From the IMG/VR virus record IMGVR_UViG_2617270973_000006, positions 1 to 11,777 of that record: a DNA stretch of 11,777 bases, one strand, 5' to 3'. The stretch comes from a virus (lineage: Duplodnaviria > Heunggongvirae > Uroviricota > Caudoviricetes). A program made the translations under genes and the position numbers. How positions within the stretch are numbered: the first letter of the stretch is position 1; every line of letters begins with the position of its first letter. Positions 499 to 11,471 of the stretch are shown here, one piece after another. The notes beneath the pieces were generated by a model. It worked only from the letters and a program-made list of their open reading frames with translations, did not search any database and had not been told where the DNA came from.

Positions 499-1596
499 TT
501 AGAACTGGTAAACCAGACCTACAGCAACGATGTCATCAGTGCTTACACCGAGTGCTTTAGTGAAGTCATTTTTGTCAAGCAGGTTGATTTTGTAATCAAC
601 GAAAGTAGACATATTTTTGTTGAAGTAATAGGTTGCACCTACATCAACATATTTGACTAAGTCCTGATCGCCCCATACTCCAAGATCCTTACCTTTAGAT
701 TGCAGGTAAGCAACGGACGGACGCAGACCGAAATCGAACTGATATTGTGCAACAGCTTCGAAGTTTTGAGCTTTATTAGCAACGAAGTGATCAGCAAATA
801 CAGTCATATTCTGGGTTTCAGAATAGGTAGTGGCCAGGTAAATGTTGTTAGCGTCATATTTCAGACCTGCGGCCCAAACTTCTGCATTTTTACCGGAAGC
901 AAATACTTCAGGAAGAACTTTCCCTGCATTAACTTGAGTGTCGGTACGATCAGATTTCGCATAAGTTGCACCGATACCGAATCCTTCGTATTCATAGGTA
1001 GCAGAGAAACCGAAGCCATCACCGTTACCTTCGGTGTAGTTATCGAAATCGCTACGATCGTTTTTGCCTTGGTACTGAGCAGCAAAGTTCAGACCATCAA
1101 CCAGACCAAAGAAGTCGTTGTTACGATAGGTTGCAACACCAGTTGCACGTTGAGTCATGAACACGTCGGTTTGAGTCCAAGTGTCACCACCGAATTCTGG
1201 CAGGACGTCAGTCCACGCACCGATGTCGTATGCTACACCGTAGTTACGGCCGTAATCGATGGAGCCGTAGTCACCGAATTTCAGGCCAGCGAAGGCAAGA
1301 CGGGTTTTATCTTTGGAGGAACCTTGAGATTCAGCGCGGTTGCCTTTGAATTCATATTCCCACTGACCGAAACCAGTCAGTTGATCGTTGATTTGGGTTT
1401 CACCTTTGAAGCCAAGACGGGCATAAGTAGTATCACCATCATCTGCATCATTAGAGGAGAAGTAGTGCTTAGCATTAACTTTCCCGTACAGATCCAGCTT
1501 GTTACTGTCTTTATTATAAATTTCAGCTGCCTGAGCAGACATCGCCATCAGTACTGATGCAGCTACAGCAGAAATTGCCACTGTTAATTTTTTCAT
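499..1596 (-). CDS. nmpC: Outer-membrane general porin, NmpC/Lc (OmpC/OmpF/PhoE) family, prophage-encoded; 365 aa precursor
   Basis: Track ORF 499..1656; the real start is the internal ATG at 1596-1594 ([23 protein letters not shown] signal peptide then AEIYNKD...), preceded by a GGG-containing RBS. Porin hallmarks: [16 protein letters not shown] N-terminus, PEFGGD loop-3 motif, C-terminal ...VGLVYQF. Position between Q-side DNA and the holin mirrors nmpC in DLP12 and lc in PA-2. Confidence 0.9.
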
Positions 1597-2023
1597 CGTG
1601 AGCCCTTTTTTTGAACTATTATTAAAAAATGATGTCACTGCGCGATAAATATTCATCTAATCAATGTGATTATTTCAAGATGTAAGTTTTGGTTTCTCGT
1701 TTGATTTGTGAAGTAGATCTCTATTTTTATCTGAACTTTTTTCTATCGAATCCTATTCATGGCTCTTGGCTGAATAAAAATAAATCTATTAGCCAATTTA
1801 TATTAATGGCTGTTATTTATAAGTGCTCTATAATTTGAAGGTTCAATTTAAACCGGCTAAAAATAACACTGGAAATTATTTGTTGGTTATTTGTTGAGAT
1901 TTGCTTATGTATTTGTAGTGGTGTTTTCAATACTCGGTAGCATTCTCGCAAATATCATTTAGTGGTTTACGTACGTAAAAAATTGGTTATGCTGTTAAGA
2001 GTGGTTACTTCGTCACACAGCTT

Positions 2024-2168: not shown

Positions 2169-2384
2169 ATGAAATCCATGGATAAGTTAACAACGGGTGT
2201 CGCCTATGGCACCTCAGCAGGTAGTGCCGGGTACTGGTTTTTACAGCTGCTAGATAAAGTCACGCCCTCACAGTGGGCGGCAATTGGAGTGCTGGGTAGC
2301 CTGGTATTTGGCCTGCTGACGTACCTGACAAACCTTTATTTCAAGATTAAAGAAGATAAGCGCAAGGCTGCGAGAGGTGAATAA
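2169..2384 (+). CDS. S: Class II holin (pinholin), phage 21 S21 family; 71 aa with MKSM dual start (antiholin Met1 / holin Met4)
   Basis: [71 protein letters not shown] closely resembles S21 / EssD as I recall it: two TM segments and a charged C-tail. Stop TAA overlaps the endolysin ATG (TAATG at 2382-2386). Confidence 0.9.
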
Positions 2385-2881
2385 TGCCTCCATCATTACG
2401 AAAAGCCGTTGCTGCTGCTATTGGTGGCGGAGCAATTGCTATAGCATCAGTGTTAATCACTGGCCCAAGTGGTAACGATGGTCTGGAAGGTGTCAGCTAC
2501 ATACCATACAAAGATATTGTTGGTGTATGGACTGTATGTCACGGGCATACAGGAAAAGACATCATGCTCGGTAAAACGTATACCAAAGCAGAATGCAAAG
2601 CCCTCCTGAATAAAGACCTTGCCACGGTCGCCAGACAAATTAACCCGTACATAAAAGTTGATATACCGGAAACAACGCGCGGCGCTCTTTACTCGTTCGT
2701 CTACAACGTGGGTGCTGGCAATTTCAGAACATCGACGCTTCTTCGCAAAATAAACCACGGTGATATCAAAGGCGCATGTGATCAGCTACGGCGCTGGACA
2801 TACGCTGGCGGTAATCAATGGAAAGGACTGATGACTCGCCGTGAGATTGAGCGTGAAGTCTGTTTGTGGGGGAAACAATGA
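2384..2881 (+). CDS. R: SAR (signal-arrest-release) endolysin, T4-lysozyme-like muramidase (phage 21 R21 / RrrD type), 165 aa
   Basis: N-terminal Gly/Ala-rich weakly hydrophobic SAR segment ([20 protein letters not shown]) followed by the E-x8-D-x5-T catalytic arrangement ([25 protein letters not shown]). Same length as the phage 21 endolysin; translationally coupled to S. Confidence 0.9.
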
Positions 2882-3345
2882 GCAGAGTAACCGCGATTAT
2901 CTCCGCTCTGGTTATCTGCATCATCGTCTGCCTGTCATGGGCTGTTAATCATTACCGTGATAACGCCATTACCTACAAAGCCCAGCGCGACAAAAATGTC
3001 AGAGAACTGAAGCTGGCGAACGCGGCAATTACTGACATGCAGATGCGTCAGCGTGATGTTGCTGCGCTCGATGCAAAATACACGAAGGAGTTAGCTGATG
3101 CGAAAGCTGAAAATGATGCTCTTCTGCGGAAGCTTGATAATGGTGGCAGGGTGCTCGTCAAAGGAAAATGCCCTGTGCCATCCTCTGCCGAAACCTCCAG
3201 CGCCTCCGGCATGGGCAATGATGCCACCGTCGAACTCTCTCCAGTTGCTGGACGAAACGTTCTCGATATCCGGGACGGAATTATCCGCGACCAAACAGCA
3301 CTGAGAACGCTTCAGGAATACATTAGGACGCAATGCCTTCGATGA
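2878..3345 (+). CDS. Rz: Rz i-spanin (inner-membrane spanin subunit), lambda type
   Basis: ATG at 2878 overlaps the endolysin stop (ATGA). The track ORF begins at an upstream GTG (2866), which I reject as the start. N-terminal TM helix ([20 protein letters not shown]), coiled-coil body, near-identical to lambda Rz as I recall it. Confidence 0.85.
3098..3304 (+). CDS. Rz1: Rz1 o-spanin (outer-membrane lipoprotein), embedded in the +1 frame of Rz
   Basis: AAGGAG RBS (3085-3090) 7 nt before ATG 3098; signal peptide with lipobox ([18 protein letters not shown]|C); proline-rich mature part ([16 protein letters not shown]) typical of Rz1; lies wholly inside Rz in another frame. Confidence 0.8.
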
Positions 3346-3520
3346 TAGCGATAATTTTACTCATCATCCTTCACATCTGGCTCTGTAGACAGGGTGGTGA
3401 TCACTTCTGGAGTAAATCCAGATTAAACATCTCATTGCTGATGCTTGATATTGAGCATCTGGCGCGCAGTAAGGGGCTGCGTTGAGATAAGAGCCAGTTC
3501 ATTACAAATACCAGGATTTA

Positions 3521-3545
3521 GCCTCGCATTCGCGGGGCTTTTTAT
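3521..3545 (+). terminator. Candidate rho-independent terminator downstream of the lysis cassette
   Basis: GCCTCGC (3521-3527), loop ATTC, GCGGGGC (3532-3538): 7-bp stem (six Watson-Crick pairs plus one G-U) followed by TTTTTAT. Confidence 0.45.
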
Positions 3546-3687
3546 ATCTGAATTTCACAGCGCATCTCACGCGCATATTAACGAGAGCCTTTCAGTAAGC
3601 GAGCCTGAGAAATGCCGTTATAGGTGGCGACCTCTCTCGGGCGGCTTTTCTGTGAGACAGGCTCACTTTCTAAAAGGTAAAGACGCT

Positions 3688-4212
3688 ATGAATAATCATT
3701 CAGTTATTCCAGCCTTCGACTTCCGAGAAATGGTGCAAGCCAAAAACGGAGAGGTCGTTACCACATCCAGAAAAATTGCCAAGTACTTCGGCAAGCGACA
3801 CGGTGATGTTCTCAGGAAAATCGAGCAGGTTAAGGCTGATTGCTCGCGTGAGTTTAGCCAACGCAATTTTGCGTCGGCTGATTATATCGATGAGCAGGGC
3901 AAGGTTCGCCCGATGTACAGCCTGACGAAAGATGGCTGGATCATGGTTGTGATGGGGTTCACCGGGAAAGCTGCTGCGGCAATCAAGGAGAGCTATATCG
4001 CAGCATTCAACTGGATGGCAGAACAACTGAGCCGCCGCATGGCAATTGGCGAAGAAATGCAGCACCGCTACGCCATCAAAGAAACACGCTCAAAGCTGAA
4101 AGGTACGATCGGCAGTCGGTTAATGAACGAACGGAAGAAAGAGAAGCGTGTCCTGGCTGTCGAGCATGAATACATCTTGCAGGTGACACAGCCTGAACTG
4201 CTGATTAATTGA
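3688..4212 (+). CDS. rha: Rha-family phage regulatory protein (pfam Phage_pRha-like), 174 aa
   Basis: Track ORF 3445..4212, but the credible start is ATG 3688 (MNNHSVIPAFD...) with an AAAAGG RBS. Rha signature stretch VTTSRKIAKYFGKRHGDVLRKI...MYSLTKDGWIMVVMGFTGKAAAAIKESYIAAFNWM. Occupies the slot where lambda carries bor. Confidence 0.75.
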   Translation: MNNHSVIPAFDFREMVQAKNGEVVTTSRKIAKYFGKRHGDVLRKIEQVKADCSREFSQRNFASADYIDEQGKVRPMYSLTKDGWIMVVMGFTGKAAAAIKESYIAAFNWMAEQLSRRMAIGEEMQHRYAIKETRSKLKGTIGSRLMNERKKEKRVLAVEHEYILQVTQPELLIN

Positions 4213-4514
4213 AGATGTCATTACAAAGCCTATCTACGGGGGGCTTGATAATGGCTTATACCCTGCACGGGATAACTTAACTGATATCCCTTTTAACGGA
4301 TAAAGGTATTCAAGCCTGACACATCATGCGCTGTATCGTCGCCGTATTCCCGCATTAACCATGACCGTAGCCCGACGGGGAATTCCTTCTGCGTGAGTGT
4401 GCGGGAATAATCAAAAACGATGCACACCGGGTTATTAACGCGTCAACTGAACGCGGGGTTGCTCTTCATGTCAGCCAGTCCGGTGCAGGGGTAGAAGAAA
4501 CCGGACGTTATGGT

Positions 4515-4925
4515 TTAGTGTGGAAACATTTGTGATGTGCTCTGTATGTTTTCAGTAAAGAGTAATGAATTATCAAAGGTATAGTAATATCTTTTTTGTT
4601 CGTGGATATTTGTAACCCACCGAAAAACTCCTGCTTTAGCAAGGTTTCTTCTGTATTCCTGAAATGTGATCTCTCTGGATTTCAGCTTATTAGAGGTCGT
4701 TTCTATAAGATGCCTATCCTTTGAAAATTTGACAGACACAATGTTTTTTAGGCCCTTTAATAACACTGTATTATCATTTTTTAATACAATATGAACATTC
4801 TCTGTGGCTAAATAGTAAATGTAATGTGAGACATTGTGACGTTTTAGCTCAGAATAAAACCATTGATAGTTTAAATCGTTTCGAACTTTATCAAATATTT
4901 GTTTAAAAATGACTACCTGATCCAT
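4515..4925 (-). CDS. DUF1398-family protein (YbcV/YdfO-like; homologue of the lambda right-end ORF annotated as a putative envelope protein); function unknown
   Basis: Track ORF 4515..4967 (GTG start); I favour ATG 4925 ([13 protein letters not shown]...), which has a GGAAGG RBS 7 nt upstream and gives 136 aa, the length I recall for YbcV. Visibly AT-rich relative to its neighbours. Family name is recalled, not searched. Confidence 0.65.
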
Positions 4926-4983
4926 AGATAAACCTTCCATGTGATATGAGGGGGGCGTAGTCTGCACGATTATCTAAATTGCT

Positions 4984-5217
4984 TCAATCTGGTCTGATCT
5001 GTTTTCTGAGCAATTCAGTAATGTCACTCTTTTCTTTGTTTGCTTCAGGAGAAACTCTTTTTTCTGAGCACAGTCTCCGGCGGCAGGCTTCAATGACCCA
5101 GGCTGAGAAATTCCCGGACCCTTTTTGATCAAGAGCGATGTTAATTTGTTCAATCATTTGGTTAGGAAAGCGGATGTTGCGGGTTGTTGTTCTGCGGGTT
5201 CTGTTCTTCGTTGACAT
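4984..5217 (-). CDS. Small DUF3950-family protein (YnfO/YlcI-like), predicted ribbon-helix-helix-like DNA-binding fold; function unknown
   Basis: 77-aa ORF with ATG at 5217-5215. MSTKNRTRRTTTRNIRFPNQMIEQINIALDQKGSGNFSAWVIEACRRRL has a basic N-tail, a beta strand and two helices, consistent with a CopG/Arc-like RHH. Sits immediately upstream of, and co-oriented with, the DUF1398 gene (16-bp gap), as in lambda and K-12 cryptic prophages. Confidence 0.65.
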   Translation of the reverse strand: MSTKNRTRRTTTRNIRFPNQMIEQINIALDQKGSGNFSAWVIEACRRRLCSEKRVSPEANKEKSDITELLRKQIRPD

Positions 5218-5379
5218 GAGGTTGTCCCGTATTCAGTGTCGCTGATTTGTATTGTCTGAAGTTGTTTTTACGTTAAGTTGATGCAGATCAATTAATACGA
5301 TACCTGCGTCATAATTGATTATTTGACGTGGTTTGATGGCGTAGATGCACGTTGTGACATGCAGATGATAATCATTATC

Positions 5380-5605
5380 ATTTTGCGGGTCCTTTCCGGC
5401 GATCCGACAGGTTACGGGGCGGCGACCTCGCGGGTTTTCGCTATTTATGAAAATTTTCCGGTTTAAGGCATTTCCGTTCTTCTTCGTCGTAACTTAATGT
5501 TTTTATTTAAAATACCCCCTGAAAAGAAAGGAAACGACAGGTGCTGAAAACGAGCTTTTGGGCCTCTGTCGTTTCCTTTCTCTGTTTTTGGCCGTGGAAT
5601 GAACA
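5380..5605 (+). other. Lambda-type cos packaging site (cosQ-cosN-cosB region) between the right-end genes and Nu1
   Basis: 5370-5416 matches the lambda right end (...GATGATAATCATTATCA...GGGTCCTTTCCGG.GATCCGACAGGTTACG) and 5417 onward matches the lambda left end (GGGCGGCGACCTCGCGGGTTTTCGCTATTTATGAAAATTTTCCGGTTTAAGGC...), up to the Nu1 start. From memory of the lambda sequence. Confidence 0.85.
5417..5428 (+). other. cosN: 12-nt cohesive-end sequence GGGCGGCGACCT (terminase nicking site)
   Basis: Exact match to the lambda 12-nt 5' overhang, flanked by lambda-like right-end and left-end sequence. Confidence 0.85.
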
Positions 5606-6130
5606 ATGGAAGTCAACAAAAAGCAGCTGGCTGACATTTTCGGTGCGAGTATCCGTACCATTCAGAACTGGCAGGAACAGGGAATGCCCGTTCTGCGAGG
5701 CGGTGGCAAGGGTAATGAGGTGCTTTATGACTCTGCCGCCGTTATAAGATGGTATGCCGAAAGGGATGCTGAAATTGAGAACGAAAAGCTGCGCCGGGAA
5801 GTTGAAGAACTGCGGCAGGCCAGCGAGACAGATCTCCAGCCAGGGACTATTGAGTACGAACGCCATCGACTTACGCGTGCGCAGGCCGACGCACAGGAGC
5901 TGAAAAATGCCAGAGACTCCGCTGAAGTGGTGGAAACCGCATTCTGTACTTTCGTGCTGTCGCGGATCGCAGGTGAAATTGCCAGTATTCTCGACGGGAT
6001 CCCCCTGTCGGTGCAGCGGCGTTTTCCGGAACTGGAAAACCGACATGTTGATTTCCTGAAACGGGATATCATCAAAGCCATGAACAAAGCAGCCGCGCTG
6101 GATGAACTGATACCTGACCACGCAGCGTAA
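5606..6130 (+). pseudogene. nu1: Terminase small subunit Nu1, C-terminally truncated by a deletion junction (about 170 lambda-like codons plus 4 novel codons, then stop)
   Basis: MEVNKKQLADIFGASIRTIQNWQEQGMPVLRGGGKGNEVLYDSAAVI... is near-identical to lambda gpNu1 through ...[14 protein letters not shown], then diverges (DHAA*) where the lambda protein continues into the gpA-interaction tail. The N-terminal winged-HTH cosB-binding domain is intact. Confidence 0.85.
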
Positions 6131-6140
6131 GGCGTGGGAT

Positions 6141-8609
6141 GTGCTCAGTGATTTCTGCTCGGCGATGCGCTGTATGCCGGTATGGAACGGGCAGACGCTG
6201 ACGTTCGTGCAGGACCGACCATCAGATAAGGTGTGGACCTATAACCGCAGTAATGTGGTGATGCCGGATGATGGCGCGCCGTTCCGCTACAGCTTCAGCG
6301 CCCTGAAGGACCGCCATAATGCCGTTGAGGTGAACTGGATTGACCCGAACAACGGCTGGGAGACGGCGACAGAGCTTGTTGAAGATACGCAGGCCATTGC
6401 CCGTTACGGTCGTAATGTCACGAAGATGGATGCCTTTGGCTGTACCAGCCGGGGGCAGGCACACCGCGCCGGGCTGTGGCTGATTAAAACGGAACTGCTG
6501 GAGACGCAGACCGTGGATTTCAGCGTGGGTGCTGAAGGGCTTCGCCATGTACCGGGCGATGTCATTGAAATCTGCGATGATGACTATGCCGGTATCAGCA
6601 CCGGTGGTCGCGTGCTGGCGGTGAACAGCCAGACCCGGACGCTGACGCTCGACCGTGAAATCACGCTGCCATCCTCCGGTACCACGCTGATAAGCCTGGT
6701 TGACGGAAGTGGTAATCCGGTCAGCGTGGAGGTTCAGTCCGTCACCGACGGACTTAAGGTGAAAGTGAACCGGGTTCCTGATGGCGTTGCAGAATACAGT
6801 GTGTGGGGGCTGAAGTTGCCGACGTTGCGTCAGCGCCTGTTCCGCTGTGTGAGTATCCGTGAGAACGATGACGGCACGTATGCCATCACTGCCGTGCAGC
6901 ATGTACCGGAAAAAGAAGCCATCGTGGATAACGGGGCGCACTTTGACGGCGACCAGAGCAGCACGGTGAATGGTGTCACGCCGCCAGCGGTGCAGCACCT
7001 GACCGCCGAAGTCACCGCAGACAGCGGGGAATATCAGGTGCTGGCGCGCTGGGACACGCCGAAGGTGGTGAAGGGCGTGAGCTTCCTGCTCCGTCTGACC
7101 GTAACAGCGGATGACAGCAGTGAGCGGCTGGTCAGCACGGCCCGGACGACGGAAACCACATACCGCTTCACGCAACTGGCGCTGGGGAACTACAGGCTGA
7201 CAGTCCGGGCGGTAAATGCGTGGGGGCAGCAGGGCGATCCGGCGTCGGTATCGTTCCGGATTGCCGCACCGGCAGCACCGTCGAGGATTGAGCTGACGCC
7301 GGGCTATTTTCAGATAACCGCCACGCCGCATCTTGCCGTTTATGACCCGACGGTACAGTTTGAGTTCTGGTTCTCGGAAAAGCGGATTACCGATATCAGG
7401 CAGGTTGAAACCACAGCACGCTATCTTGGCACGGCGCTGTACTGGATAGCCGCCAGTCTCAATATCAAACCGGGCCATGATTATTACTTTTATATCCGCA
7501 GTGTGAACACCGTTGGCAAATCGGCATTCGTGGAGGCTGTTGGTCAGCCGAGTGATGATGCATCCGGTTATCTGGATTTTTTCAAAGGCGAGATAGGGAA
7601 AACCCATCTGGCTCAGGAGCTGTGGACGCAGATTGATAACGGTCAGCTTGCGCCTGACCTGGCTGAAATCAGGACGTCCATTACGGATGTCAGCAATGAA
7701 ATCACGCAGACCGTCAATAAGAAACTGGAAGACCAGAGTGCGGCAATTCAGCAGATACAGAAGGTTCAGGTTGATACAAATAATAACCTGAACAGCATGT
7801 GGGCTGTGAAGCTGCAGCAGATGCAGGACGGACGCCTTTATATCGCGGGTATTGGTGCCGGTATTGAGAACACCCCTGACGGCATGCAGAGTCAGGTGCT
7901 GCTGGCGGCAGACAGGATTGCGATGATTAATCCTGCGAATGGCAACACAAAGCCGATGTTTGTTGGGCAGGGCGATCAGATATTCATGAACGAAGTGTTC
8001 CTGAAACGCCTGACGGCTCCCACCATTACCAGCGGCGGTAATCCTCCGGTATTTTCCCTGACACCGGACGGGCGGCTGACGGCGAAAAATGCCGATATCA
8101 GCGGTAACGTGAATGCGAACTCCGGGACGCTCAACAACGTCACGATTAACGAGAACTGTCGGGTTCTGGGAAAACTGTCCGCCAACCAGATTGAAGGCGA
8201 TCTCGTTAAAACAGTGGGCAAAGCTTTCCCCCGGGACTCCCGTGCACCGGAACGGTGGCCATCAGGGACCATCACCGTCAGGGTTTATGACGATCAGCCG
8301 TTTGACCGGCAGATTGTTATTCCGGCGGTGGCATTCAGCGGCGCTAAACATGAGCGGGAGAATAACGATATTTATTCGTCATACCGCCTGATAGTACGGA
8401 AAAACGGTGCTGAAATTTATAACCGTACCGCGCTGGATAATACGCTGATTTACAGTGGTGTTATTGATATGCCTGCCGGTCACGGTCACATGACACTGGA
8501 GTTTTCGGTGTCAGCATGGCTGGTAAATAACTGGTATCCCACAGCAAGTATCAGCGATTTGCTGGTTGTGGTGATGAAGAAAGCCACTGCAGGCATCACG
8601 ATTAGCTGA
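6141..8609 (+). pseudogene. J: Tail-tip / host-specificity protein J, 5'-truncated fragment (C-terminal roughly 820 codons of an about 1130-codon gene) fused downstream of the Nu1 remnant
   Basis: Track ORF begins at a GTG. Product ...[24 protein letters not shown]...[20 protein letters not shown]... is collinear with lambda gpJ from about residue 310 onward; no J N-terminus and no RBS. The same frame is open back to a stop at 6108-6110. The central and C-terminal receptor-binding parts diverge from lambda J. Confidence 0.85.
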
Positions 8610-9340: not shown

Positions 9341-9820
9341 ATGGCAGTACGGATTTCAGGTGTACTGAAAGATGGCGCAGGTAAGCCGATACAAAACTGC
9401 ACCATTCAGCTAAAGGCCAGGCGCAACAGCACCACGGTGGTGGTGAACACAGTGGCCTCAGAAAACCCGGATGAAGCCGGGCGTTACAGCATGGACGTTG
9501 AGTACGGTCAGTACAGCGTTATTCTGTTGGTGGAAGGATTCCCGCCGTCACATGCCGGGATCATCACCGTGTATGAAGATTCCCAACCCGGTACGCTGAA
9601 TGATTTTCTCGGTGCCATGACGGAGGATGATGCCCGTCCTGAGGCACTGCGCCGTTTTGAACTGATGGTGGAAGAGGTGGCGCGTAACGCGTCCGCAGTG
9701 GCACAGAACACGGCAGCCGCGAAGAAGTCAGCCGGCGATGCCGGCACATCTGCCCGTGAGGCGGCAATCCGCGGCAACGCGTGCCGAAACAGCGGCAAAA
9801 CGGGCAGAGGATATTGCTGA
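9341..9820 (+). pseudogene. stf: Side tail fibre (Stf), N-terminal fragment; reading frame lost near 9775-9795
   Basis: MAVRISGVLKDGAGKPIQNCTIQLKARRNSTTVVVNTV...FELMVEEVARNASAVAQ is collinear with the lambda Stf N-terminus for about 143 residues, then reads an unrelated tail (RGNACRNSGKTGRGYC*) while Stf homology continues in another frame. Confidence 0.75.
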
Positions 9821-11471
9821 TGCCGTATCTCTGGAAGATGCGAGTACGACGAAAAAAGGTGTGGTTCAGCTTAGTAGTGCAACCAACAGCACGTCTGAAA
9901 CGCAGGCTGCAACGCCGAAAGCAGTAAAGGCAGCATATGACCTTGCTAACGCAAAATATACCGCTCAGGACGCAACGACGGCACGAAAAGGGATAGTTCA
10001 GCTCAGTAGCGCCACTAACAGCCCGTCTGAAACGCTGGCTGCGACACCAAAAGCGGTTAAGGCGGTAATGGATGAAACGAACAAGAAAGCGCCCTTAAAT
10101 AGTCCTGCACTGACCGGAACGCCAACAACGCCAACTGCGCCAAAAGGTACTAATAATACTCAGATCGCAAGTACGGCTTATGTGATGGCCGCGATTGCCG
10201 CCCTTGTAGACTCGTCGCCTGACGCACTGAATACGCTGAACGAGTTAGCGGCGGCGCTGGGCAACGACCCGAATTTTGCGACCACCATGACTAACGCGCT
10301 TGCGGGTAAGCAACCGAAAGATGCCACCCTGACGGCGCTGGCCGGGCTTGCTACTGCGGCAGACAGGTTTCCGTATTTTACGGGGAATGATGTCGCCAGC
10401 CTGGCAACCCTGACAAAAGTCGGGCGGGATATTCTTGCGAAATCGACCGTTGCTGCCGTTATCGAATACCTCGGTTTACAGGAAACGGTAAACAGGGCCA
10501 GGAACGCCGTGCAAAAGAATGGCGATACCTTGTCCGGTGGGCTTACTTTTGAAAACGACTCAATCCTTGCCTGGATTAGAAATACTGACTGGGCAAAGAT
10601 TGGTTTTAAAAATAATGCCGACAGCGACACTGATTCATACATGTGGTTTGAAACAGGCGACAACGGCAATGAATATTTCAAATGGAGAAGCCGCCAGAGC
10701 ACCACAACAAAAGACCTGATGACTCTTAAATGGGATGCTTTGTCTGTCCTTGTTAAAGCCCTTTTCAGCAGTGAAGTAAAAATATCGACAGTCAATGCAC
10801 TGAGGATATTTAATTCATCTTTTGGTGCTATTTTTTGTCGTTCTGAAGAATGCCTGCATATCATCCCTACACGAGAGAATGAGGGAGAAAATGGTGATAT
10901 AGGGCCACTACGCCCCTTTACGCTTAATCTCAGAACTGGTCGGATAAGCATGGGGCATGGTCTTGATGTTACAGGGGATATATTTGCAAACCGTTTTGCA
11001 ATTAACAGTAGTACCGGCATGTGGATTCATATGCGTGACCAGAATGTTATTTTGGGACGCAATGCGGTATCCACCGATGGTGCGCAGGCATTACTTCGTC
11101 AGGACCACGCTGATCGCAAATTTATGATTGGTGGACTGGGGAATAAGCAATTTGGCATCTACATGATTAATAACTCAAGGACAGCCAATGGCACCGATGG
11201 TCAGGCGTACATGGACAACAATGGCAACTGGCTTTGCGGTGCGCAAGTTATTCCCGGCAATTATGGTAATTTTGACTCACGTTATGTGAGAGATGTCCGA
11301 CTTGGTACACGTGTTGTTCAGACTATGCAAAAAGGCGTGATGTATGAGAAATCAGGTCATGCAATTACGGGGCTTGGCATTATCGGTGCAGTTGATGGCG
11401 ATGATCCGGCAGTATTCAGACCAATACAAAAATACATCAATGGCACATGGTATAACGTCGTACAGGTGTAA
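9738..11471 (+). pseudogene. stf: Side tail fibre (Stf), distal portion in a +1-shifted frame; includes the conserved fibre motif and a non-lambda C-terminal domain
   Basis: From about 9768 this frame reads ...AAKRAEDIADAVSLEDASTTKKGVVQLSSATNSTSETQAATPKAVK...NTLNELAAALGNDPNFATTMTNALAGKQPKDATLTALAGL..., collinear with lambda Stf after its Ala/Ser-rich repeat region; the last roughly 300 residues are unlike lambda (no His-rich GAHAH repeats). The first about 10 codons (MPAHLPVRRQ) are out-of-frame sequence. Confidence 0.7.
9852..10064 (+). repeat. Diverged tandem duplication (period about 132 nt) of the conserved tail-fibre motif K-G-[IV]-V-Q-L-S-S-A-T-N-S-x-S-E-T-x-A-A-T-P-K-A-V-K
   Basis: Copy 1 about 9852-9938 (KKGVVQLSSATNSTSETQAATPKAVKA) and copy 2 about 9984-10064 (RKGIVQLSSATNSPSETLAATPKAVKA); by eye roughly 80 percent nucleotide identity. 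Lambda Stf has a single copy, as I recall. Confidence 0.7.

What the first reader, a model, noticed from the sequence alone, without database searches (positions are those of the whole stretch)
4515..5217. AT-rich, antisense-oriented two-gene cargo module of unknown function (DUF3950-like RHH protein plus DUF1398-like protein)
Two co-oriented genes run opposite to the late operon. The first is a 77-aa basic protein with a predicted ribbon-helix-helix-like fold; 16 bp downstream is a 136-aa protein whose gene is strikingly AT-rich compared with its neighbours. As I recall, the same pair sits next to cos in lambda and in K-12 cryptic prophages, where its function is still not established, and it survives here although the essential morphogenetic genes next door were deleted. 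A small DNA-binding protein followed by a larger partner is the architecture of toxin-antitoxin and exclusion modules, so this is the most plausible place in the window for undescribed biology.
Basis: partly seen in the sequence, partly recalled or inferred. Interest (0 to 1): 0.5.

Follow-up and report, generated by a model that had tools for sequence, protein, structure and literature searches.

The report
Known prophage genes ynfO and ydfO
The two genes are real and conserved, but they are the already catalogued E. coli prophage genes ynfO and ydfO, and comparison across phages shows two independent accessory genes that happen to lie side by side here, not a coupled toxin-antitoxin style module.

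Summary
On the minus strand, 4984-5217 encodes a 77-aa basic DUF3950 (YlcI/YnfO) protein. 4515-4925 encodes a 136-aa DUF1398 protein in a 31% GC gene. Both lie antisense to the late operon, beside cos, in a DLP12/Qin-like prophage remnant. One detail is wrong: the gap between the genes is 58 nt, not 16.

The large protein is about 97% identical to K-12 YdfO, whose NMR structure is PDB 2HH8. NCBI's PGAP pipeline already names both genes. The DNA occurs in 4969 of 5426 complete E. coli genomes.

The "module" reading is not supported:
- DUF3950 is in 152 phage records and DUF1398 in 43.
- Stx phages carry DUF3950 alone.
- DUF1398 occurs alone as chromosomal ycgX, and next to a different packaging gene in one contig.
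- In lambda and DLP12 an opposite-strand gene separates the two.
- DUF1398 carries its own conserved 5' block, which ycgX shares.

The picture that fits best is a fixed small gene, the first leftward gene next to the packaging start, followed by a variable insertion slot that DUF1398 occupies here. The small protein is probably an Arc/CopG-like ribbon-helix-helix DNA binder, on moderate evidence. Both biochemical functions remain unknown. The finding is already known and of low to moderate interest.

The parts
4984..5217 (-). ynfO-like gene: 77-aa basic DUF3950 (YlcI/YnfO family) protein. Codons 1 to about 50-54 (about 5056-5217) form the conserved, probably ribbon-helix-helix domain. Codons 55-77 (4984-5054) are a variable tail.
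   Evidence: The protein matches PF13132 at E 4.9e-21, NF041551 and phrog_949. PGAP annotates an identical gene. dN/dS is 0.03-0.09. Homology with lambda stops at 5055, and homology with Stx phage 2851 covers only 5077-5217.
4515..4925 (-). ydfO-like gene: 136-aa soluble DUF1398 protein in a 31.4% GC gene.
   Evidence: The protein matches PF07166 at E 1.5e-46 and K-12 YdfO (PDB 2HH8) at E 5e-85. It has no hydrophobic segment and pI 9.6. dN/dS is about 0.2.
4926..5003 (-). Conserved 5' block belonging to DUF1398. It holds a PdhR-box-like site AACAGATCAGACCAGAT (4987-5003), a candidate promoter TTGAAG (4982-4987) N17 CAGACT (4959-4964), an alternative -10 GATAAT (4969-4974) and the Shine-Dalgarno GGAAGG (4933-4938). 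It overlaps the last codons and stop of the small gene.
   Evidence: From CAGACCAGATTGAAG to the ATG the block is conserved in the window, Qin, DLP12, lambda and solitary ycgX. Genomic SELEX found PdhR sites at the homologous K-12 positions, and ybcV mRNA fell 10-fold in a pdhR mutant (PMC7660256). The promoter motifs are weak.
4998..5054 (-). 58-nt segment specific to the adjacent (Qin-type) arrangement. Lambda and DLP12 have about 617 nt with ybcW in its place. It is flanked by 15-nt direct repeats (4998-5012 and 5056-5070).
   Evidence: The blastn breakpoints are and the direct repeat D2 is.
5218..5416 (-). Upstream region of the small gene, reaching to cos. It contains a 13-nt-arm inverted repeat (5287-5319), and no convincing sigma-70 promoter was found.
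   Evidence: The scans and repeat search are. The region is conserved among Nu1-type loci but completely different in HNH-type (Stx) phages, where homology starts at the ATG.
5417..5428 (+). cosN cohesive-end sequence GGGCGGCGACCT, followed by cosB and the Nu1 gene (5606-6130).
   Evidence: The sequence was read directly. The stretch is 96% identical to the lambda cos/Nu1 region. Nu1 matches Pfam at E 2e-101.
4325..4505 (.). Conserved block of about 180 nt that bounds the far side of the variable slot. It contains a perfect 10-nt inverted repeat, TATTCCCGCA (4345-4354) and TGCGGGAATA (4400-4409).
   Evidence: The block lies downstream of DUF3950 in lambda, DLP12, E. albertii, Stx phage 2851 and four other contexts, whatever sits between them. 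Lambda keeps the inverted repeat through a compensatory change. In HK629 and lambda the block lies upstream of bor and carries an annotated promoter.

Best explanation
The window carries the Qin-type (ynfO-ydfO) version of the accessory region that lies between the lysis genes and cos in lambdoid phages. It consists of two independent genes, both read leftward and antisense to the late operon, so they can only be expressed from their own promoters.

(1) The small gene is a fixed feature. It is the first leftward gene next to the packaging start. Its conserved unit is about 50 codons: a basic N-terminal arm, a short strand (NIRFP), helix A, an invariant Gly turn and helix B. I infer a dimeric Arc/CopG-like ribbon-helix-helix DNA-binding regulator. 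Its operator is unknown. The 27-residue tail in this allele is a by-product of the recombination junction.

(2) Downstream of the small gene is a variable insertion slot, bounded by a conserved 180-nt block. Here the slot holds DUF1398, an AT-rich insert with its own conserved 5' regulatory block. DUF1398 encodes a soluble cytoplasmic protein with the YdfO fold. From the K-12 literature I infer that host factors control it (PdhR, stress induction) and that it acts as a non-toxic, stress-related host-fitness factor.

Shown here: gene reality, family membership, separability of the two genes, the slot structure, and the separate conserved 5' block.
Inferred: RHH DNA binding, host-regulated expression, and the fitness role.
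For: Identity of the genes:
- Both proteins pass their Pfam and NCBIfam cut-offs.
- The large protein is about 97% identical to YdfO, PDB 2HH8.
- PGAP names both genes in an identical locus.
- The K-12 orthologues are ynfO-ydfO, ylcI/ybcV and ycgX.

Separability:
- DUF3950 is in 152 phage records and DUF1398 in 43.
- DUF3950 stands alone in Stx phage 2851 and in three other allele contexts.
- The ycgX class of DUF1398 has no DUF3950 within 5 kb.
- L034 has ybcW and DUF1398 beside a DUF1441 packaging gene, with no DUF3950.

Fixed position of the small gene: its divergent neighbour is Nu1 in 89 fetched loci, HNH in 6, and a contig end in 32.

Slot structure:
- Window 4219-4505 is homologous to a block that lies 174 nt downstream of DUF3950 in phage 2851.
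- That block is present in 10 of 13 lambdoid DUF3950 contexts examined.
- Other occupants of the slot are a TonB_C-like gene, an 82-aa gene and a 46-aa gene.

Separate control of DUF1398: its 5' block is conserved in all copies, including solitary ycgX.

Selection: dN/dS is 0.03-0.09 for the small domain and about 0.2 for DUF1398.

RHH fold:
- The AlphaFold2 model has helices at 19-32 and 34-54 with core pLDDT 82-85.
- hhalign against an RHH set gives P 3.8e-4 in the correct register.
- A PHROG HicB-like family matches at E 0.007.

Expression in K-12, from the literature:
- ybcW-ylcI form a convergent excludon in at least 50% of RNA-seq samples (PMC12288877).
- ydfO is induced 12- to 116-fold by an ionic liquid (PMC4077768).
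- ybcV mRNA falls 10-fold in a pdhR mutant, and a PdhR site was found by SELEX (PMC7660256).
Against: - No biochemical function is shown for either protein.
- No convincing sigma-70 promoter or terminator was found for either gene.
- In every phage record I inspected that has DUF1398, DUF3950 lies upstream on the same strand. A regulatory link between the two is therefore not excluded.
- The window's PdhR-like box has a mismatch in one half-site (GAT instead of GGT).
- The fetched loci are not a random sample.
Confidence: 0.6

Rival explanations
1. Regulator-target pair. The small RHH protein represses or activates the promoter of the adjacent DUF1398 gene, or other genes placed in the slot, or the palindrome-bearing block at 4325-4505. 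The two genes are then functionally linked although not obligately coupled.
For: - The two genes have the same orientation, and DUF3950 is always upstream of DUF1398 in the phage contexts examined.
- RHH proteins are typically promoter-proximal repressors.
- The conserved inverted-repeat block co-occurs with DUF3950 in most contexts.
Against: - Solitary ycgX keeps the same 5' block without any DUF3950 nearby.
- DUF3950 is just as conserved in phages that lack DUF1398.
- No repeated operator-like motif is shared between the Nu1-type and HNH-type upstream regions.
- K-12 Qin lacks most of the 180-nt block.
Confidence: 0.2
2. Toxin-antitoxin or abortive-infection/exclusion module. The RHH protein is the antitoxin and DUF1398 the toxin or effector.
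For: - A small basic RHH-like protein is followed by a larger partner on the same strand.
- The model has a third, C-terminal helix (59-74), as RHH antitoxins do.
Against: - Each gene commonly occurs without the other.
- Lambda and DLP12 have an opposite-strand gene between them.
- The gap is 58 nt, and DUF1398 has a separate conserved 5' block.
- The C-terminal tail varies between alleles and derives from a junction.
- There is no toxin or defence-model hit.
- A ybcV::kan strain is viable (PMC3945230), and YdfO overexpression is cited as protective, not toxic (PMC4077768).
Confidence: 0.06
3. The small protein is a packaging- or cos-associated DNA-binding factor, which would explain its constant position next to the terminase genes.
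For: It is the first gene beside the packaging start in both Nu1-type and HNH/TerS-type phages.
Against: - It is antisense to the late operon, so it cannot be made from the late transcript.
- The Nu1-type and HNH-type phages have unrelated packaging modules, and their sequences upstream of the gene are also unrelated.
- A 40%-identical homologue in the satellite-like element vB_KppS-Ant is not next to packaging genes.
- From general knowledge, lambda packaging has been reconstituted without any such factor.
Confidence: 0.05

Closest known systems
E. coli K-12 Qin prophage ynfO-ydfO (b4533, b1549)
   Same: The arrangement is the same: nohA/Nu1 divergent, then a 77-aa DUF3950 gene, a 58-nt gap and a 136-aa DUF1398 gene. 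The DNA is 97.5% identical over window 4476-5700. The YdfO protein matches at E 5e-85.
   Different: The window copy sits in a DLP12-like prophage with a porin gene, essD and rrrD. Rha and the 180-nt block lie downstream instead of gnsB. It has one extra C in the C-run of the DUF1398 leader and a G-to-A change in the PdhR-like box.
Phage lambda right end: lambdap78 (DUF1398, complement 47042-47452), lambdap79 (ybcW-like) and an unannotated 64-aa DUF3950 ORF (complement 48109-48303). DLP12 ybcV-ybcW-ylcI is the same arrangement.
   Same: Both families are present, in the same order and orientation relative to cos. The DUF1398 5' block is the same, and so is the 180-nt block.
   Different: The genes are about 650 nt apart, with an opposite-strand gene between them. 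The small protein has a different, shorter tail, the DUF1398 protein is 78% identical, and bor lies downstream.
P22 Arc and Mnt, and pMV158 CopG (minimal ribbon-helix-helix repressors)
   Same: The size is similar, at about 45-55 residues. The pattern of strand, helix, Gly-turn and helix is shared, and the strand motif is similar (NIRFP against NLRWP). hhalign gives P 3.8e-4 in the correct register.
   Different: No database-level significant match was found. The operator, dimerisation and DNA binding are untested. The small protein also has a long Arg/Thr-rich N-terminal arm.
Lambdoid morons such as bor and lom
   Same: DUF1398 is an insert with deviant GC content between conserved phage segments. 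It reads antisense to or independently of the late operon, and its K-12 orthologues are expressed from uninduced prophages.
   Different: bor and lom encode envelope proteins with known phenotypes. DUF1398 is a soluble cytoplasmic protein with no established phenotype.

Membership tests
DUF3950 / YlcI-YnfO family (PF13132, NF041551) | The protein scores above the curated cut-offs of the family models | tested here: met
   PF13132 scores 74.8 bits against a cut-off of 25. NF041551 scores 35.7 against 30. phrog_949 matches at E 8e-34.
DUF1398 / YdfO-like (PF07166) | The protein scores above the Pfam cut-off over the full domain and is homologous to the solved YdfO structure | tested here: met
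   PF07166 scores 157.8 bits against 22, covering profile positions 1-119 of 119. PDB 2HH8 matches at E 5e-85. The family profile finds only 2HH8 in the PDB.
Ribbon-helix-helix (Arc/MetJ/CopG) superfamily | N-terminal strand followed by two helices joined by a Gly-containing turn | tested here: inconclusive
   The AlphaFold2 monomer has helices at 19-32 and 34-54 with core pLDDT 82-85. Residues 12-18 are extended but not called as a strand. Gly33 is invariant and aligns with the invariant Gly of the RHH set.
Ribbon-helix-helix (Arc/MetJ/CopG) superfamily | Significant sequence or structure match to known RHH proteins | tested here: inconclusive
Ribbon-helix-helix (Arc/MetJ/CopG) superfamily | Obligate dimer with an intersubunit beta-sheet that binds the DNA major groove | not testable with these tools
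   Only monomer prediction was available, and there is no binding assay.
Type II toxin-antitoxin module | The two genes co-occur as a unit | tested here: not met
   DUF3950 is in 152 phage records and DUF1398 in 43. Each gene occurs alone in several contexts.
Type II toxin-antitoxin module | Tightly coupled bicistronic operon with one autoregulated promoter | tested here: not met
   The gap is 58 nt. DUF1398 has its own conserved 5' block, shared with solitary ycgX. In lambda and DLP12 an opposite-strand gene lies between the two genes.
Type II toxin-antitoxin module | The larger protein belongs to a toxin family or is toxic, and the small protein neutralises it | not testable with these tools
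   There is no toxin-family hit in Pfam or PADLOC. The literature points to non-toxicity but is indirect.
Known anti-phage defence systems (PADLOC-DB 2.0) | Match to a defence-system protein model | tested here: not met
   The small protein has no hit. DUF1398 has only a Csx23 match at E 0.013 and 13.5 bits, which I regard as noise.
Moron (independently expressed accessory insert in a lambdoid genome) | Present or absent as a discrete insert between segments conserved in related phages, with deviant base composition | tested here: met
   DUF1398 is absent between DUF3950 and the 4219-4505 block in Stx phage 2851 and other phages. Its GC content is 31.4% against about 50% in the flanks.
Moron (independently expressed accessory insert in a lambdoid genome) | Own promoter and terminator, with expression from the uninduced prophage | tested here: inconclusive
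   A conserved 5' block exists, but only weak promoter motifs were found and no clear terminator. Expression of the K-12 orthologues is reported in PMC4077768, PMC7660256 and PMC12288877.

The most novel reading that the evidence does not exclude
The conserved item may be the small gene, not the pair. On this reading it encodes an about 50-residue Arc-like repressor under very strong purifying selection. It sits at the packaging-proximal end of the late operon in lambda (where the reference record does not annotate it), in lambda relatives, in Stx-converting phages and in a satellite-like element. It would anchor a hotspot for gene insertion, and it might control prophage-expressed cargo such as the genes in the slot or the palindrome-bearing bor-promoter block, or host genes. 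That would be an undescribed regulator in the best-studied phage.
Probability: 0.15. Interest if true: 0.5.

Novelty: already known. Interest (0 to 1): 0.25.

Why it matters
The two genes are among the most widespread function-unknown prophage genes in E. coli. Related DNA is present in over 90% of complete genomes, and both genes are present in phage lambda itself.

Knowing that they are separable units changes the experimental plan. They should be knocked out and expressed individually. K-12 has redundant paralogues to account for: three DUF1398 genes (ybcV, ydfO, ycgX) and two DUF3950 genes (ylcI, ynfO).

The analysis also shows that the database labels 'head protein' and 'putative envelope protein' for DUF1398 have no visible support. 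It also shows that a conserved 64-aa ORF next to cos is missing from the lambda reference annotation.

Tried and rejected
2. A weak sequence match of DUF1398 to the parafibromin N-terminal domain (E 0.005) disappeared when the family profile was used. It was chance.
4. Profile searches of the small protein against PDB sequences and Pfam RHH families found nothing.
5. PADLOC gave no defence-system match.
6. Rfam found no family in 3300-5700.
7. Consensus promoter and terminator scans were at or below the number expected by chance. A relaxed scan found only 8-of-12 matches.
8. The 233-aa 'fusion' protein P0121, which carries both domains, is a read-through of the TGA stop plus a 1-nt loss in the C-run. 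It is most likely an artefact of gene calling or sequencing, not a natural fusion.
9. The apparent wide taxonomic spread of DUF1398 (Kitasatospora, Brevibacillus, Flavobacterium and others) is lambda control-DNA contamination on contigs of about 3.5 kb or 48.5 kb.
10. RNAalifold on the 180-nt block predicts a long hairpin, but with only one compensatory pair and an unfavourable covariation term. An RNA element is therefore not established.
11. The first attempt at the genome-context scan failed because the alignment was too diverse. I repeated it with a narrower alignment.

Full report
WHAT IS IN THE WINDOW

The window is a lambdoid prophage remnant of E. coli. The gene order is:
- a porin gene (499-1656, minus strand);
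- P21-type holin, lysozyme, Rz and Rz1 (2169-3345);
- a Rha-family gene (3709-4212);
- the two minus-strand genes of the finding;
- a lambda-type cos site, with cosN at 5417-5428;
- Nu1 (5606-6130), followed directly by the C-terminal 822 codons of the tail-tip gene J;
- lom, a split stf gene and tfa.

The 1421 bases around the finding are 100% identical to chromosomal DNA of E. coli strain 1409. There they lie in a DLP12-position prophage, and PGAP already names the two genes 'YlcI/YnfO family protein' and 'DUF1398 domain-containing protein'. Related DNA occurs in 4969 of 5426 complete E. coli genomes.

CHECK OF THE OBSERVATION

The coordinates, orientation and sizes are right, and so is the AT-richness:
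- The 77-aa protein has pI 10.55 and matches PF13132 (DUF3950) and NCBIfam YlcI/YnfO above their cut-offs.
- The 136-aa protein matches PF07166 (DUF1398). It differs at only a few C-terminal positions from K-12 YdfO, whose NMR structure is PDB 2HH8.
- The DUF1398 gene is 31.4% GC. The small gene is 44%, and the flanking Rha and Nu1 genes are 51-53%.
- Both are real genes under purifying selection. Across alleles, dN/dS is 0.03-0.09 for codons 1-49 of the small gene, with dS reaching 1.16, and about 0.2 for DUF1398.

Two details are wrong. First, the intergenic gap is 58 nt when the 136-aa ATG start is used. That start has a GGAAGG Shine-Dalgarno and is the one used by PGAP and for K-12 ydfO. 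The '16 bp' figure belongs to a longer GTG-start ORF. Second, in lambda and DLP12 the two genes are not adjacent (see below).

IS IT A TWO-GENE MODULE?

I tested this by comparing contexts. Three arrangements of DUF1398 exist:
- Adjacent to DUF3950, as in the window, K-12 Qin (ynfO-ydfO), E. albertii and many IMG/VR prophage contigs.
- Separated by about 650 nt that carry an opposite-strand gene. This is lambda (DUF1398 at complement 47042-47452, the ybcW-like lambdap79, and DUF3950 at complement 48109-48303) and DLP12 (ybcV, ybcW, ylcI).
- Solitary. This is the ycgX class, 44-50% identical, beside bluR in K-12 and also in E. ruysiae, E. whittamii, Citrobacter and Raoultella. No DUF3950 gene lies within 5 kb.

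One contig (L034) carries ybcW plus a phage-type DUF1398 next to a DUF1441 packaging gene, again without DUF3950.

The reverse also holds. DUF3950 alleles with other C-terminal tails have no DUF1398 downstream. Examples are Stx phage 2851, where the gene is divergent from HNH-terS-terL, and three further allele contexts. Among 50,697 phage records, tblastn finds DUF3950 in 152 and DUF1398 in 43. At least 109 phage genomes, including all the Stx-converting phages, therefore carry the small gene alone.

THE ANATOMY THAT EMERGES

The small gene is a fixed landmark. In the loci I fetched, its divergent neighbour is Nu1 in 89, an HNH endonuclease gene in 6, and a contig or genome end in 32. Between Nu1-type and HNH-type phages, homology starts exactly at the ATG and ends near codon 50. 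The conserved unit is therefore only the N-terminal domain.

Against lambda, the window's homology breaks at 5055, which is codon 54, and resumes at 4997. A 58-nt segment flanked by 15-nt direct repeats takes the place of lambda's 617 nt with ybcW. The last seven codons and the stop of the 77-aa allele lie in sequence that belongs to the DUF1398 upstream block. The tail is thus a junction product.

Downstream, a block of about 180 nt (window 4325-4505) recurs behind DUF3950 in lambda, DLP12, E. albertii, Stx phage 2851 and four other contexts, whatever lies between. The space between the small gene and this block is a variable slot. Depending on the phage it holds DUF1398, ybcW plus DUF1398, a TonB_C-like gene, an 82-aa gene, a 46-aa gene, or nothing annotated (174 nt in phage 2851). 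DUF1398, with its deviant GC content, is a classic moron-type insert.

DUF1398 HAS ITS OWN CONTROL REGION

From CAGACCAGATTGAAG, about 78 nt upstream, to the ATG, the sequence is conserved in the window, Qin, DLP12, lambda and also solitary ycgX. The block contains:
- a candidate promoter, TTGAAG-N17-CA(G/A/C)ACT;
- an alternative -10, GATAAT;
- at its edge, the GGTCAGACC box that genomic SELEX identified as a PdhR site upstream of ybcV and ydfO. ybcV mRNA fell 10-fold in a pdhR mutant (PMC7660256). The window has GATCAGACC.

The motifs are weak by consensus scans, so the promoter assignment is inference.

Other K-12 data show expression without prophage induction:
- ydfO is induced 12- to 116-fold by an ionic liquid, and that paper cites YdfO overexpression as raising oxidative-stress resistance (PMC4077768).
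- ybcW and ylcI form a convergent excludon in at least half of RNA-seq samples (PMC12288877).
- ycgX is derepressed in an hha ydgT mutant (PMC3686432).
- ybcV::kan is viable (PMC3945230).

The 2024 y-ome review still lists ynfO and ydfO as uncharacterized (PMC11551758).

FOLD OF THE SMALL PROTEIN

The AlphaFold2 model has mean pLDDT 70 and core pLDDT 82-85. It shows an extended basic N-terminus, helices at 19-32 and 34-54, and a third helix in the variable tail. Database searches gave no significant match:
- Foldseek E-values were above 4, with RHH-like TCP domains and the CopG/Arc/MetJ-family antitoxin 5CEG at the top.
- Pfam gave no RHH hit.

It aligned in the expected register: NIRFP on Arc's NLRWP strand, helix A, and the invariant Gly33 on the invariant RHH Gly. 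PHROG gave HicB-like at E 0.007 and, for a 40%-identical homologue, Arc-like at E 0.38. I rate RHH as probable, about 70%, but not demonstrated.

FOLD OF THE LARGE PROTEIN

VERDICT

The finding is a correct description of already known, named genes of unknown function. The toxin-antitoxin or exclusion-module interpretation fails the co-occurrence and operon tests, and it has no support from family or defence-model searches. The best-supported reading is two independent accessory genes: a fixed, probably RHH, regulator gene next to cos, and a DUF1398 moron with its own host-regulated control region.

The most interesting residue is the small gene itself. It is strongly conserved, unannotated in the lambda reference, and anchors an insertion hotspot. 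Its target is unknown.

Noticed in passing
lambda J02459 complement 48109-48303 (L003 3742-3936): The lambda reference record carries no annotation for a 64-aa DUF3950 ORF about 200 nt from cos. Some other lambda records annotate it as hypothetical. The ORF is under strong purifying selection across phages.
   Followed up: partly
window 4325-4505: A conserved block of about 180 nt contains a perfect 10-nt inverted repeat (4345-4354 and 4400-4409). Lambda keeps the repeat through a compensatory C/G swap. In lambda and HK629 the block lies upstream of bor and holds an annotated promoter. Here there is no bor, and the block abuts the 3' end of Rha.
   Followed up: partly
window 5287-5319: An inverted repeat, ATCAATTAATACG / CGTCATAATTGAT, lies 70-100 nt upstream of the small gene's ATG. 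It is conserved in Nu1-type loci and absent in HNH-type loci. It may be an operator or a promoter element.
   Followed up: no
L009-L049, loci from 'genome contigs': Dozens of assemblies of unrelated taxa (Kitasatospora, Brevibacillus, Flavobacterium, Shewanella, Cohnella and others) contain contigs of about 3.5 kb or 48.5 kb with lambda's right end. This is consistent with lambda control-DNA contamination, probably the sequencing spike-in.
   Followed up: no
phrog_413; RefSeq NC_001416, NC_019711 and others: DUF1398 is labelled 'head protein' in PHROGs-derived annotations and 'putative envelope protein' in older lambda records. The protein is soluble, has no membrane segment and lies outside the head gene cluster, so both labels look like propagated errors.
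   Followed up: partly
protein P0121; window 4947-4952 (C6 run): A 233-aa database protein fuses both domains by reading TGA as Trp and losing one C of the C-run in the DUF1398 leader. The window has C6 where K-12 Qin has C5.
   Followed up: partly
L141 3501-3704 (Escherichia phage vB_KppS-Ant, LR881103): An unannotated 67-aa DUF3950 homologue, about 40% identical, lies antisense to all its neighbours in a 16.5-kb satellite-like element. It is overlapped by an annotated 324-aa ORF on the other strand that looks spurious.
   Followed up: partly
window 9341-11471: The side tail fibre gene is split into two overlapping ORFs of 159 aa and 577 aa, which suggests a frameshift.
   Followed up: no
window 6100-6145: A deletion joint lies here. 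Nu1 (174 aa; Pfam Phage_Nu1 matched over positions 1-164 of 164) runs almost directly into the C-terminal 822 codons of J, so the genes that lie between Nu1 and J in lambda are missing.
   Followed up: no
window 499-1656: The nmpC-like porin gene is intact. In K-12 DLP12 the homologue is interrupted by IS5.
   Followed up: no
L133 743-1069; L136 908-1156; L134 445-585: Other occupants of the slot downstream of DUF3950 are a TonB_C-domain gene, an 82-aa gene and a 46-aa gene. All are on the opposite strand to DUF3950, and none has a known function in this context.
   Followed up: no
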